Origin: a phage
DNA: 64,000 bases
Sequence record: PQ724394.1
Reading direction: 5' to 3' (one strand)
Under the pieces are notes generated by a model. That model saw only the letters and a program-made list of their open reading frames with translations, was not told where the DNA came from and did not search any database. Positions 3,458-25,737 of this stretch are shown piece after piece. Made by a program: the position numbers and the translations under genes. The first letter of the stretch is position 1, and every line of letters starts with the position of its first letter.

Positions 3458-3510
3458 TAACCTCCAGTAGTTGATAGGTCTATAGTATCATTTCTACTGG
3501 AGATGTAAAC
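3458..3510 (-). promoter_or_regulatory. PeSL-like early promoter cassette (GTTTAC -35, 17-nt spacer, TACTAT -10, inverted repeat CTCCAGTAG/CTACTGGAG, RBS)
   Basis: Minus-sense GTTTACATCTCCAGTAGAAATGATACTATAGACCTATCAACTACTGGAGG then ATG; conserved core shared with other copies. Confidence 0.65.
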
Positions 3511-4845: not shown

Positions 4846-4911
4846 TTTATTCTCCGTTTAACTCAGTAGATTTGATAGGTCCATAATAACATGCTCTACG
4901 AGAGTGTAAAC
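4846..4911 (-). promoter_or_regulatory. PeSL-like early promoter cassette (diverged core)
   Basis: Minus-sense GTTTACACTCTCGTAGAGCATGTTATTATGGACCTATCAAATCTACTGAG then GGAGAATAAAATG. Confidence 0.55.
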
Positions 4912-6431: not shown

Positions 6432-6992
6432 TTAAGGGTTCATAGTTGGGATAACAGAGTTCAGATAAGAGACTAAAACTTTTAGCTCGTCTTTAGTAAA
6501 TACCACTTCATTTTCACCGTCGTGTCTTTGGGTCAAGGATAGCAAATCACGACCCTGGTGTTGATACACGGATAATTCGGTATCATAATCCAGTTCTTCT
6601 TCATCACCTTCAAATGTTTCACTAGAACGAATCACCGCATCTTGACCTGGAACTTTCCATTCAACTTCAGGCTTGCATTCTTCCTGGAACAGTTTAAAAA
6701 TACATTTAAAGAAATTACTAGAATTCCTAATGCTTAGACATTCCGTATCAGTTTCGATATTAAATCCGTCTTCATTTTTATAAATCTGGGCCCATACATC
6801 GTCGTTAATATCAAACGATGCTCTATGGCGTCCATCAAGATACCCATCTTTATCCAAAACCTTTAAATCATAAAGTGGTTTAATATCTTGGATAGTTAGT
6901 ACGATTTTATCGTCTTCTTGGCAAATCTCAATAGCATTATCAACTACTTCAGCGGTCAGTTCACCAAACAGCTCAGATGTTTCGATAATCAT
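6432..6992 (-). CDS. acidic hypothetical protein (186 aa)
   Basis: ORF in array; D/E-rich; no motif. Confidence 0.5.
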   Translation of the reverse strand: MIIETSELFGELTAEVVDNAIEICQEDDKIVLTIQDIKPLYDLKVLDKDGYLDGRHRASFDINDDVWAQIYKNEDGFNIETDTECLSIRNSSNFFKCIFKLFQEECKPEVEWKVPGQDAVIRSSETFEGDEEELDYDTELSVYQHQGRDLLSLTQRHDGENEVVFTKDELKVLVSYLNSVIPTMNP

Positions 6993-7002
6993 TTTTATTT
7001 CC

Positions 7003-7233
7003 TCAACGGTTATGTTTTAAAATACTATAAAGTTCTTCGACTTGGCTTGCATCCAGATAAATGACCTCGTCGTCTTGTTCCAGGACAATTCCACCTTTAA
7101 TAAGATTCCACTCTACCACTTCAACGGTCATATCATCACCAGAACCTGCTAATGTTTCAGGTTTCAAAACAATAACACCATCTTCAGAATTACCACTCGG
7201 GTCGTATAAACTCATCTCATGCTCCTGTGCCAA
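7003..7233 (-). CDS. hypothetical protein (76 aa)
   Basis: Small acidic ORF in co-directional array. Confidence 0.4.
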   Translation of the reverse strand: MAQEHEMSLYDPSGNSEDGVIVLKPETLAGSGDDMTVEVVEWNLIKGGIVLEQDDEVIYLDASQVEELYSILKHNR

Positions 7234-7469
7234 CAGTTACGTGGCTCACGTTTAAAAATTTCATCATGCATTGACTGACAACCTATACAGTATATCACAC
7301 CTTTGATAGCTTGACGTCGTGCTTCAGGAATCTCTTCATCACAATCAAAACAATATTTAGCCGATTCACGTTCAACTGCTACTTGCTTACGGGCGTGTAC
7401 TATAGCGGCCTGTACGACCGCTTCCATTTCGAGCTGTTCAGCTCCGTCCTTAGCAAATCCAACAGCCAT
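7212..7469 (-). CDS. TraR/DksA-family C4 zinc-finger protein (85 aa)
   Basis: CFDCDEEIPEARRQAIKGVIYCIGCQ matches the CxxC-x17-CxxC TraR/DksA zinc-finger pattern. Confidence 0.6.
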   Translation of the reverse strand: MAVGFAKDGAEQLEMEAVVQAAIVHARKQVAVERESAKYCFDCDEEIPEARRQAIKGVIYCIGCQSMHDEIFKREPRNCWHRSMR

Positions 7470-7651
7470 TATGCTTTCAACTCATTAAGATACTCAACCA
7501 AGGCTGCTTTAGAGTTAGCCAAATCTCGTTTACACTGCTCTATTCCGGAATACGAATAGCCTTCGCAATGTTCTACTGCAATATCATAAGAATCGCGTTC
7601 AACATCGCTAGCAAGTTTGATAATTTTCTCAATCTGTTCAGTAGTTAACAT
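7469..7651 (-). CDS. hypothetical protein (60 aa)
   Basis: Small ORF, start overlaps upstream stop. Confidence 0.4.
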   Translation of the reverse strand: MLTTEQIEKIIKLASDVERDSYDIAVEHCEGYSYSGIEQCKRDLANSKAALVEYLNELKA

Positions 7652-7655
7652 AATA

Positions 7656-7892
7656 TCACCAGTATTTGTTGATAGTAGAAATTAATTCTTGGGCTTGAGT
7701 GGTCTTCAGCTTACACCCACAACCCTTTAATGTGTCTTTAAGGAGCCATGGTTCCTTGAGCTCGTCCTTTTCTAGGCGAATTCTGTACCCTCGGTAGTCA
7801 GCAAATATACTTCGGTCGTCGAATATCTTAATCTCAAGGAGGTGGTTATTGATTTCGTATTCCAATGAAACCGTAGTACTTGTAAGTTTCAT
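7656..7892 (-). CDS. hypothetical protein (78 aa)
   Basis: ATG at 7892 preceded by GAGGAG RBS and a PeSL-like promoter. Confidence 0.5.
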   Translation of the reverse strand: MKLTSTTVSLEYEINNHLLEIKIFDDRSIFADYRGYRIRLEKDELKEPWLLKDTLKGCGCKLKTTQAQELISTINKYW

Positions 7893-7949
7893 ACTGTTCT
7901 CCTCATTAGTTGATAGGTCTATAGTATCACGTTCCTAGAGGATGTAAAC
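7893..7949 (-). promoter_or_regulatory. PeSL-like early promoter cassette
   Basis: Minus-sense GTTTACATCCTCTAGGAACGTGATACTATAGACCTATCAACTAATGAGGAG. Confidence 0.65.
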
Positions 7950-7957
7950 ACTAAAAC

Positions 7958-7984
7958 GAAAAAAGGTCCCACCGAAGTGAGACC
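7958..7984 (-). terminator. rho-independent terminator (UUCG-loop hairpin plus U-tract)
   Basis: Minus-sense GGTCTCACTTCGGTGGGACCTTTTTT downstream of the 7990..8376 gene. Confidence 0.6.
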
Positions 7985-7989
7985 TTTGA

Positions 7990-12188: not shown

Positions 12189-12245
12189 TTTGTAATCTCC
12201 TGTAGTTGATAGGTCTATAGTACCACGTCTACAGGAGATGTAAAC
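12189..12245 (-). promoter_or_regulatory. PeSL-like early promoter cassette
   Basis: Minus-sense GTTTACATCTCCTGTAGACGTGGTACTATAGACCTATCAACTACAGGAG; perfect 9-bp inverted repeat CTCCTGTAG/CTACAGGAG. Confidence 0.65.
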
Positions 12246-14523: not shown

Positions 14524-14578
14524 TTTAATCTCCTGTAGTTGATAGGTCTATAGTATCATGCCTACTGGAGATGTAAAC
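14524..14578 (-). promoter_or_regulatory. PeSL-like early promoter cassette
   Basis: Minus-sense GTTTACATCTCCAGTAGGCATGATACTATAGACCTATCAACTACAGGAG upstream of denV. Confidence 0.65.
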
Positions 14579-22740: not shown

Positions 22741-22804
22741 TTTACTCCCCTTCACACTGTTGTTTTGATAGGTCTATAGTATCACGTTTAAAGGAGGTGT
22801 AAAC
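22741..22804 (-). promoter_or_regulatory. PeSL-like early promoter cassette
   Basis: Minus-sense GTTTACACCTCCTTTAAACGTGATACTATAGACCTATCAAAAC. Confidence 0.6.
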
Positions 22805-25672: not shown

Positions 25673-25737
25673 TTTATTCTCCAATCACTCATTTGTTTTG
25701 ATAGGTCTATAGTATCATGCCTATAGACCTTGTAAAC
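25673..25737 (-). promoter_or_regulatory. PeSL-like early promoter cassette
   Basis: Minus-sense GTTTACAAGGTCTATAGGCATGATACTATAGACCTATCAAAAC; inverted repeat AGGTCTATAG/CTATAGACCT. Confidence 0.65.

What the first reader, a model, noticed from the sequence alone, without database searches (positions are those of the whole stretch)
7212..7469. TraR/DksA-type zinc-finger protein among early genes
The CxxC-x17-CxxC pattern with the EEIPEARR segment matches TraR/DksA-family proteins, which bind the RNA polymerase secondary channel. A phage-encoded copy could reprogramme host transcription, for example mimicking the stringent response, early in infection.
Basis: partly seen in the sequence, partly recalled or inferred. 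Interest (0 to 1): 0.4.

Follow-up and report, generated by a model that had tools for sequence, protein, structure and literature searches.

The report
Phage TraR/DksA-family zinc-finger gene, YbiI-like
This is a real, conserved 85-residue zinc-finger gene of the TraR/DksA family in a T4-like (Dhakavirus) phage, already annotated and noted in print; it most resembles the uncharacterised E. coli protein YbiI, and it lacks the full acidic tip motif that TraR needs to act on RNA polymerase.

Summary
Window 7212..7469 (-) is an 85-aa ORF with CxxC-x17-CxxC and EEIPEARR. It passes the Pfam zf-dskA_traR threshold. The predicted fold is one helix, a Zn ribbon and a second helix, and it best matches YbiI (2KGO) and RNAP-bound TraR (6N57).

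The window is a JS98/JS10-type Dhakavirus. The protein is identical to JS10 YP_002922442.1, and 672 phage records hold homologues. [quoted passage not shown]

The new point is that this is not a canonical TraR. It belongs to the YbiI-like branch. The rim-helix/Si3-contact residues are invariant (P48, E49, R51, R52). The DxxDxA tip is replaced by an invariant MAVGFAKDGA. A conserved basic tail, RNCWHRSMR, follows the C-terminal helix.

The gene is third in a translationally coupled unit behind a T4-early-type promoter.

The most likely mechanism, inferred and not shown, is a ppGpp-independent binder of the host RNA polymerase secondary channel that retunes initiation early in infection. Its potency or mode may differ from TraR.

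Ordinary as a family assignment; modest interest.

The parts
7212..7469 (-). CDS of the 85-aa TraR/DksA-family (YbiI-like) zinc-finger protein, stop codon included
   Evidence: ORF list. Pfam PF01258 above threshold. Identical to JS10 YP_002922442.1.
7437..7469 (-). Residues 1-11, MAVGFAKDGAE: the clade-invariant N-terminal tip that stands where TraR has DxxDxA
   Evidence: N-termini of 42 phage-clade clusters are nearly identical. 139 of 225 family proteins have [FWY]xxDxA upstream of the zinc finger, almost all at residue 5 (or shifted by an N-terminal extension), and 30 have DxxDxA. M1, A2, G4 and A10 are invariant and D8 nearly so in A6. hhalign does not align this stretch to TraR.
7380..7457 (-). 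Residues 5-30: predicted N-terminal helix, the counterpart of the TraR N-helix (residues 2-27)
   Evidence: AF2 model has H5-30. The TraR element boundaries come from PMC6970531.
7278..7352 (-). Residues 40-64: C4 zinc ribbon, C40/C43 and C61/C64
   Evidence: Read directly from the sequence. All four Cys are invariant in 43 homologues.
7314..7328 (-). Residues 48-52, PEARR: counterparts of TraR P45, E46, R48, R49 (RNAP binding, beta' rim helices, beta'Si3)
   Evidence: P48, E49, R51 and R52 are invariant. The roles of the TraR residues come from PMC9239242 and PMC6970531.
7254..7286 (-). Residues 62-72: predicted C-terminal helix, the counterpart of the TraR C-helix that contacts the beta lobe-Si1
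   Evidence: AF2 model has H62-72. hhalign aligns up to residue 73 with TraR residue 71.
7215..7253 (-). Residues 73-85, KREPRNCWHRSMR: clade-specific conserved basic C-terminal tail, absent from TraR and predicted disordered
   Evidence: The tail is invariant across the phage clade. It is kept with different codons in Turkey5, where no gene overlaps it. pLDDT is about 50.
7921..7949 (-). Sigma-70, T4-early-type promoter-like element GTTTACATCCTCTAGGAACGTGATACTAT; the inferred start of the transcription unit, with the TSS expected near 7914
   Evidence: Promoter scan and sequence. Near-identical copies occur at six other intergenic sites on the same strand. The pattern is found 16 times against 3.9 expected. 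It is identical in JS10.
7962..7987 (-). Hairpin terminator with a UUCG loop and T-run, which ends the upstream rI.-1 unit
   Evidence: Terminator scan and sequence.
7656..7892 (-). First gene of the unit: 78 aa, phrog_10363, function unknown
7469..7651 (-). Second gene: mobD.3 homologue (DUF7438). Its stop overlaps the zinc-finger start as TAATG.
   Evidence: 69% identical to T4 mobD.3.
7003..7215 (-). Fourth gene: DUF7189, 70 aa. Its ATG overlaps the zinc-finger stop as ATGA, and its AGGAG Shine-Dalgarno lies in the zinc-finger R83-S84 codons.

Best explanation
The gene encodes a small, single-helix plus zinc-ribbon member of the TraR/DksA family, of the YbiI-like branch.

Inferred expression: it is transcribed by unmodified host RNA polymerase from an early promoter at 7949..7921. 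It is the third of a run of translationally coupled small genes.

[quoted passage not shown] The N-terminal helix runs down the channel, so that the invariant tip (G4-F5-A6-K7-D8-G9-A10) lies next to the active site. The C-terminal helix faces the beta lobe-Si1.

Like TraR, the protein would act without ppGpp. It would change open-complex kinetics, disfavour short-lived host promoters such as rRNA and r-protein promoters, and free polymerase and resources for the phage.

Shown here: gene reality, family membership, fold, which TraR contact residues are kept or lost, and the promoter-like element and operon layout.

Inferred: RNA polymerase binding, direction and strength of the effect, and timing.
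For: Family and fold: Pfam PF01258 is above its cut-off. phmmer finds YbiI 2KGO at E=3.6e-9 over residues 1-69, and TraR 6N57/5W1S at about 2e-4. The AF2 model has H5-30, a Zn ribbon and H62-72. Foldseek finds YbiI, then RNAP-bound TraR 6N57_M (TM 0.59, rmsd 3.4 A over 67 columns), then DksA in RNAP complexes. hhalign of the YbiI-like profile against the TraR-like profile gives 99.8%, with residues 12-73 aligned to TraR 9-71.

Contact residues: counterparts of TraR P45, E46, R48, R49 and G54 are invariant or nearly so.

Experimental precedent: all five phage TraR homologues tested bound RNAP, inhibited rrnB P1 and complemented a dksA null (PMC9239242). YbiI itself rescued the dksA auxotrophy when overexpressed, reported as data not shown (PMC2613031). 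In DksA, D74 and A76 are called the functionally critical residues (PMC4010833). D8-x-A10 here can match them.

Selection: invariant termini, saturated synonymous sites and pN of 0.23.

Expression context: early-type promoter and coupled ORFs.

Host range: the listed phage hosts are all Proteobacteria, nearly all Gammaproteobacteria. This is the phylum that has the Si1 and Si3 insertions that TraR uses.
Against: The DxxDxA motif is not present in either register. D3N or D6N strongly reduce lambda Orf73 activity. A homologue lacking D3 is about 8-fold weaker, and an N-terminal extension also correlates with lower activity. This protein has both of those features. [quoted passage not shown] TraR P43, needed for RNAP binding, is E46 here. 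The scores fall below NCBIfam's curated cut-offs for both the TraR and YbiI models. No member of the YbiI-like branch has a published biochemical test. Zinc-finger family membership alone does not guarantee DksA-like function. No binding or expression data exist for this protein.
Confidence: 0.55

Rival explanations
1. The protein binds the secondary channel but works differently from TraR. The distinct invariant tip (aromatic in place of the first Asp, two extra residues) and the conserved basic tail could make it a channel occupant. In that role it would exclude DksA, GreA or GreB, as Rnk does. Alternatively it would act on the active site or on elongation, rather than reproduce the DksA-plus-ppGpp effect on initiation.
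For: The tip and tail are the most conserved parts of the clade, yet they are exactly the parts that do not align to TraR. The tail is kept at the protein level with different codons. The YbiI-type tail NRRGSKDSQLR is shared by bacteria and by virulent phages of other families. TraR's N-terminus already reaches to within 4.3 A of the Mg. Rnk is a precedent for a channel binder that only competes.
Against: YbiI overexpression rescued the dksA auxotrophy (data not shown in that paper), which is a DksA-like effect. D8-x-A10 can match the critical D-x-A. Nothing directly indicates a different activity.
Confidence: 0.25
2. The zinc ribbon is used for a target other than RNA polymerase: another host protein, a nucleic acid or a phage partner. 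The TraR/DksA resemblance would then be only ancestral.
For: [quoted passage not shown] The VP882 TraR homologue works as a complex with a neighbouring gene product. This gene is translationally coupled to two small proteins of unknown function.
Against: The residues that are invariant are those TraR uses to contact RNAP (P48, E49, R51, R52). The whole three-element architecture is retained. No neighbour is consistently co-inherited: DUF7189 follows the gene in Straboviridae only, not in Asteriusvirus or Crifsvirus.
Confidence: 0.15
3. It is a decaying or dispensable passenger gene with no role in infection.
For: It is absent from T4 (PMC4319498). It is reduced to a chimeric remnant in some Mosigvirus genomes.
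Against: The ORF is intact with invariant motifs across Dhakavirus, Moon-like phages, Yersinia phages and 350-kb Asteriusvirus genomes. Synonymous sites are saturated while replacement divergence is low.
Confidence: 0.05

Closest known systems
E. coli YbiI (PDB 2KGO; NCBIfam NF008243/PRK11019)
   Same: It is the best sequence and fold match. The length class is the same. It has the same N-terminal tip type, MAxG[FW]xxD.A, and the same PEARR loop and C4 ribbon.
   Different: The YbiI tail YNRRGSKDSQLR is replaced by RNCWHRSMR; intermediates such as HNRKVWHRSMR exist. The score of 76 bits is below the 96-bit equivalog cut-off. YbiI is a chromosomal gene whose function is itself untested, apart from one 'data not shown' complementation.
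F-plasmid TraR (PDB 6N57, 5W1S)
   Same: It has the same three-element architecture. Residues 12-73 align to TraR 9-71. Counterparts of P45, E46, R48, R49 and G54 are conserved. TM-score is 0.59 to the RNAP-bound TraR chain.
   Different: There is no DxxDxA (D3 becomes F5 or A6, depending on register). The N-terminus is two residues longer. P43 becomes E46 and K50 becomes Q53. There are 13 extra C-terminal residues. Scores are below the TIGR02419 and NF010268 cut-offs.
Phage TraR homologues lambda Orf73, P2 Orf82, VHML Orf8, VP882 Orf61 and X. bovienii Gp34 (PMC9239242)
   Same: They are phage-encoded small C4 zinc-finger proteins expressed with early or regulatory genes. They are the experimental precedent for host-transcription reprogramming.
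   Different: Those come from temperate phages and carry complete or nearly complete DxxDxA. This one comes from a virulent T4-like phage and is of the YbiI branch. VP882 TraR needs a partner, QisA; no conserved partner was found here.
DksA
   Same: [quoted passage not shown]
   Different: DksA is about 150 aa, has a two-helix coiled coil and depends on ppGpp. This protein has a single helix and none of the extra regions. NF033459 scores only 13.4 bits.

Membership tests
Pfam PF01258 zf-dskA_traR (TraR/DksA C4 zinc-finger superfamily) | CxxC-x17-CxxC zinc ribbon scoring above the Pfam gathering threshold | tested here: met
   38.1 bits against a cut-off of 24.9, E=1.6e-9. The four Cys are invariant in 43 homologues.
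TraR-type regulators (as defined functionally in PMC9239242 / PMC6970531) | Three-element architecture: a single N-terminal helix of about 26 residues, a globular zinc domain and a C-terminal helix | tested here: met
   The AF2 model has H5-30, a ribbon and H62-72. TM is 0.59 to 6N57_M. hhalign aligns residues 12-73 to TraR 9-71. Model confidence is only moderate (pLDDT 70).
TraR-type regulators | DxxDxA motif at the N-terminal tip (D3, D6, A8) | tested here: not met
   The tip is MAVGFAKDGAE. With an offset of 2 it reads F5xxD8xA10. With an offset of 3, which is the hhalign core register, it reads A6xxG9xE11. In TraR-type sequences D3, D6 and A8 are invariant.
TraR-type regulators | Rim-helix and beta'Si3 contact residues R48 and R49 (plus P45, E46) | tested here: met
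   R51, R52, P48 and E49 are invariant. P43 becomes E46 and K50 becomes Q53, so these two are not conserved.
TraR-type regulators | Curated NCBIfam thresholds (TIGR02419 subfamily; NF010268 TraR equivalog) | tested here: not met
   51.5 bits against a cut-off of 59.7, and 29.2 bits against a cut-off of 108.
TraR-type regulators | Direct binding in the RNA polymerase secondary channel, and ppGpp-independent inhibition of rRNA promoters | not testable with these tools
   This needs biochemistry or a complex structure.
YbiI-like branch (NCBIfam NF008243) | N-terminal MAxG[FW]xxDGA tip and full-length similarity to YbiI | tested here: met
   phmmer aligns residues 1-69 to YbiI 1-68 at E=3.6e-9. 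M1, A2, G4 and A10 are invariant.
YbiI-like branch (NCBIfam NF008243) | Equivalog score cut-off and the C-terminal YNRRGSKDSQLR tail | tested here: not met
   76 bits against a cut-off of 96. The tail here is RNCWHRSMR, whereas Klebsiella and Cronobacter phage copies keep the YbiI tail.
DksA proper | About 150 aa, with a two-helix coiled coil bearing DxxDxA at its tip and ppGpp site-2 residues | tested here: not met
   The protein is 85 aa with a single helix. NF033459 scores 13.4 bits against a cut-off of 105.

The most novel reading that the evidence does not exclude
The YbiI-like branch may be a functionally distinct class of secondary-channel factor. It has an invariant MAxG[FW]AxDGA tip instead of DxxDxA, and a conserved basic C-terminal tail that TraR lacks. 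Virulent phages of at least three lineages have captured it: Straboviridae, the 350-kb Asteriusvirus group and Grimontviridae. On this reading the tip and tail give a mode of action on RNA polymerase, or a partner, that differs from the TraR/DksA paradigm. The phage copies would then be the handle for assigning a function to the long-uncharacterised E. coli YbiI.
Probability: 0.25. Interest if true: 0.55.

Novelty: already known. Interest (0 to 1): 0.27.

Why it matters
As a family assignment it adds nothing new. [quoted passage not shown]

It has modest value as a lead. T4-type phages are the textbook case of stepwise takeover of host RNA polymerase, through Alt/Mod ADP-ribosylation, AsiA/MotA, gp55/gp33 and Alc. 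A secondary-channel factor would be an additional, non-T4 layer of that takeover.

All biochemical work on phage TraR homologues has used temperate phages and DxxDxA-bearing proteins. Testing this YbiI-type protein would show whether the altered tip still regulates initiation. It would also give the first functional data for the YbiI branch.

Tried and rejected
1. Conserved partner gene, prompted by the VP882 TraR-QisA complex. DUF7189 follows the gene in Dhakavirus and in a Klebsiella straboviral phage. It does not do so in Asteriusvirus or Crifsvirus. The adjacency looks like straboviral synteny, not an obligate pair.

2. Remnants of the gene in T4. tblastn of the zinc-finger protein and of DUF7189 against the T4 mobD.3-mobD.1 interval found nothing at E<=1. 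T4 has mobD.2a and mobD.2 there instead.

3. The invariant C-terminal tail as a by-product of the overlapping Shine-Dalgarno and start codon of the next gene. Rejected: Turkey5 keeps RNCWHRSMR with CAT AGA TCT codons and has no overlapping gene.

4. A MotA-box (T4 middle) promoter upstream. None lies between 7470 and 10500 on the minus strand.

5. R. sphaeroides RSP0166 as a negative precedent for this branch. Rejected: it is a 105-aa short DksA with DxxExA and no C-terminal helix, not a YbiI-type protein.

6. Literature on YbiI function. Only regulon listings (sigma-S, Fur) and one 'data not shown' sentence were found.

7. Fixing the tip register by alignment. MAFFT and hhalign disagree or leave the tip unaligned. 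Both registers are therefore reported.

8. The antisense ORF at 7311..7559 (+) was not pursued. The minus-strand frame accounts for all the conservation seen.

Full report
**Observation.** The minus-strand ORF at 7212..7469 encodes 85 residues. It carries C40-F-D-C43, then 17 residues, then C61-I-G-C64. The match is well beyond chance:
- Pfam zf-dskA_traR: 38.1 bits against a 24.9-bit gathering score, E=1.6e-9.
- PHROG 54 'DksA-like zinc-finger protein': E=4.6e-20.
- NCBIfam NF008243: E=2.3e-21.

**Where the window comes from.** A 5-kb stretch around the gene is 93-98% identical to Dhakavirus genomes (JS98, JS10, MN04 and others). These are T4-like phages of the Straboviridae. The gene order matches the T4 tk - rI - mobD - nrdC.11 block.

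The protein is identical to JS10 YP_002922442.1, which is annotated 'hypothetical protein PA4870'. The two genes differ by only two synonymous substitutions. T4 itself has neither this gene nor the next one; between mobD.3 and mobD.1 it carries mobD.2a and mobD.2.

tblastn finds homologues in 672 of 50,697 phage records. The listed hosts are all Proteobacteria, nearly all Gammaproteobacteria, mainly Klebsiella, Escherichia, Acinetobacter, Erwinia, Enterobacter and Aeromonas. Several copies are already annotated 'DksA-like zinc-finger protein' or 'TraR/DksA C4-type zinc finger protein'.

[quoted passage not shown] Moon's protein is 76% identical to this one.
- A 2006 survey of T4-like genomes lists the same Pfam hit for phage 44RR (PMC1524935).

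**It is a real gene under selection.** Forty-two 90%-identity clusters share the full-length architecture. They come from contigs of about 170 kb (T4-like) and about 350 kb (Asteriusvirus). Against the Asteriusvirus Turkey5 copy, synonymous sites are saturated (pS 0.80) while pN is 0.23. The first ATG is the true start, because the first twelve residues are nearly invariant across the clade.

**Anatomy.** An AlphaFold2 model built on 43 homologues has mean pLDDT 70. It gives:
- a helix at residues 5-30;
- the zinc ribbon;
- a helix at residues 62-72;
- a low-confidence tail at residues 73-85.

TraR has the same three elements: an N-helix at 2-27, a globular domain at 28-57 and a C-helix at 58-73 (PMC6970531). 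Foldseek against the PDB ranks E. coli YbiI (2KGO) first. RNAP-bound TraR comes next (6N57_M; TM 0.59, rmsd 3.4 A over 67 columns), followed by DksA chains.

By sequence the nearest solved protein is YbiI, at E=3.6e-9 and aligned from residue 1. TraR scores about 2e-4.

**Which branch of the family.** An exhaustive HMMER search of 1.8 billion representatives found 437 relatives at E<=1e-3. I took a census of the N-termini of the 225 retrieved proteins:
- 139 have an aromatic-xx-D-x-A motif upstream of the zinc finger, almost all at residue 5 (or shifted by an N-terminal extension): MAxG[FW]AxDGA, the YbiI type.
- 30 have DxxDxA at residue 2-3, the TraR type.

The window protein is of the YbiI type. 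Within that branch M1, A2, G4 and A10 are invariant and D8 nearly so. In the TraR-type set D3, D6 and A8 are invariant.

A profile-profile comparison of the two branches is unambiguous about homology: 99.8% probability, E=1.3e-27. It aligns only residues 12-73 to TraR 9-71. The tips and the tails are left out.

Two registers are possible for the tip:
- Carrying the core register (offset 3) to the tip puts A6, G9 and E11 opposite D3, D6 and A8.
- An offset of 2 gives F5, D8 and A10. This is suggested by the Asp-to-Cys spacing in YbiI and the other homologues.

Either way the first aspartate is missing, and the protein is two residues longer at the N-terminus.

The C-terminus is a second branch-specific feature. 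Bacterial YbiI proteins end in YNRRGSKDSQLR. So do copies in a Klebsiella T4-like phage and a Cronobacter Grimontviridae phage. The Dhakavirus/Moon/Asteriusvirus clade ends in RNCWHRSMR, and intermediates such as HNRKVWHRSMR exist.

In the window these codons overlap the AGGAG and ATG of the next gene. Turkey5 nevertheless keeps the same peptide with different codons and no overlapping gene. The constraint is therefore on the protein.

**Which TraR functional residues survive.** The published work defines these roles:
- DxxDxA is critical for function.
- R48 contacts the rim helices.
- E46, R49 and K50 contact beta'Si3.
- P43 and P45 are needed for binding.
- The C-helix contacts the beta lobe-Si1 (PMC9239242; PMC6970531).

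Here P48, E49, R51 and R52 are invariant and G57 nearly so. P43 corresponds to E46 and K50 to Q53. The docking surface is thus largely retained, while the active-site-proximal tip is different.

The experimental precedents cut both ways.
- For activity: all five phage TraR homologues tested bound RNAP, inhibited rrnB P1 without ppGpp and complemented a dksA null. Overexpressed YbiI was reported, as data not shown, to rescue dksA auxotrophy (PMC2613031). In DksA the residues called critical are D74 and A76 (PMC4010833), which D8-x-A10 can match.
- Against full activity: D3N or D6N cripple lambda Orf73. The homologue lacking D3 has an IC50 about 8-fold higher despite normal binding. An N-terminal extension goes with the weakest activity. 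TraR S2 already lies 4.3 A from the catalytic Mg. The same authors stress that a C4 finger alone does not predict DksA-like function.

**Expression context.** All genes from about 1 to 29,600 are on the minus strand. A strong hairpin with a UUCG loop and a T-run lies at 7987..7962. It is followed at 7949..7921 by GTTTACATCCTCTAGGAACGTGATACTAT, which has a -35 GTTTACA, an extended -10 TG and a -10 TACTAT.

Near-identical elements sit at six other intergenic positions on the same strand. The loose pattern occurs 16 times against 3.9 expected, and none of 100 shuffles reached that number. The element is identical in JS10. From general knowledge of T4, GTTTAC with a near-consensus -10 is the signature of T4 early promoters. 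No MotA-box middle-promoter pattern lies nearby.

The inferred unit runs as follows:
1. a 78-aa ORF (phrog_10363);
2. the mobD.3 homologue (DUF7438), whose TAATG overlaps the zinc-finger start;
3. the zinc-finger gene;
4. DUF7189, joined by an ATGA overlap;
5. a y05I-like putative transcription factor;
6. a membrane protein;
7. nrdC.11.

'Among early genes' is therefore reasonable but rests on pattern and synteny, not on expression data.

**A partner?** A July 2026 preprint shows that the VP882 TraR homologue arrests host growth as a complex with a neighbouring gene product, QisA. I therefore checked the neighbours in other lineages. DUF7189 follows the gene in a Klebsiella straboviral phage. 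Asteriusvirus has an acetyltransferase there instead, and Crifsvirus has unrelated small ORFs. No conserved partner emerges.

**Verdict.** The mechanistic suggestion is the best available hypothesis (confidence about 0.55). The caveat is that this is a YbiI-type protein, not a TraR-type one, and it fails the DxxDxA test.

The main rival keeps the secondary-channel location but proposes a different activity. It rests on the fact that the most conserved parts, the tip and the tail, are the parts with no TraR counterpart.

The decisive experiments are standard: DksA competition, rrnB P1 and thrABC transcription, dksA complementation, tip and tail mutants, and a phage knockout.

Noticed in passing
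window 3482-3510, 4883-4911, 7921-7949, 12217-12245, 14550-14578, 22776-22804, 25709-25737 (all minus strand): A family of almost identical promoter-like elements, GTTTACATC[TC]CC...[AG]TGATACTAT, sits in intergenic gaps of the minus-strand gene block. These are probably this phage's T4-type early promoters. The loose pattern occurs 16 times against 3.9 expected.
   Followed up: partly
window 7962-7987 (-): A strong hairpin terminator with a UUCG tetraloop and a T-run lies immediately upstream of the 7949 promoter. It separates the rI.-1 unit from the unit that holds the zinc-finger gene.
   Followed up: no
window 7656-7892 (-): A 78-aa ORF matches phrog_10363 at E=6e-54 and has a GAGGAG Shine-Dalgarno. 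The corresponding interval in RefSeq JS10, between mobD.3 and rI.-1, has no annotated CDS.
   Followed up: partly
L005 2459-2626 (Mosigvirus 308Ecol101PP); clusters P0044, P0048, P0063, P0065: Some T4-like phages carry a 54-64-aa chimeric ORF (phrog_25948). A DUF7189-like N-terminus is fused to residues 58-85 of the zinc-finger protein, so only the second CxxC and the RNCWHRSMR tail remain. It looks like a rearrangement scar that is still an open frame.
   Followed up: partly
window 6432-6992 (-): The mobD.1 homologue, two genes downstream, matches both Pfam 'y05I-like putative transcription factor' domains (PF24449 at E=9.5e-40; PF24448 at E=4e-20). This is a second candidate transcription-related protein in the same unit.
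   Followed up: no
L003 2459-2725 (Klebsiella phage Roth17) and L004 2501-2761 (Cronobacter phage A24): Virulent phages of other lineages carry YbiI-type copies that keep the bacterial C-terminal peptide YNRRGSKDSQ[LI]R almost letter for letter. In A24 the gene lies about 1.6 kb upstream of an Srd anti-sigma factor homologue.
   Followed up: partly
L009 9829-10166 (phage T4 mobD.2 / mobD.2a): At the position where Dhakavirus has the zinc-finger and DUF7189 genes, T4 has two tiny unrelated ORFs of 34 and 38 aa. This interval is a swap point between T4-like genera.
   Followed up: partly
protein cluster P0030 (145 aa): One metagenomic cluster has the full zinc-finger protein read through its stop into about 60 extra residues. 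This is probably a sequencing or assembly artefact, or a stop-codon loss.
   Followed up: no
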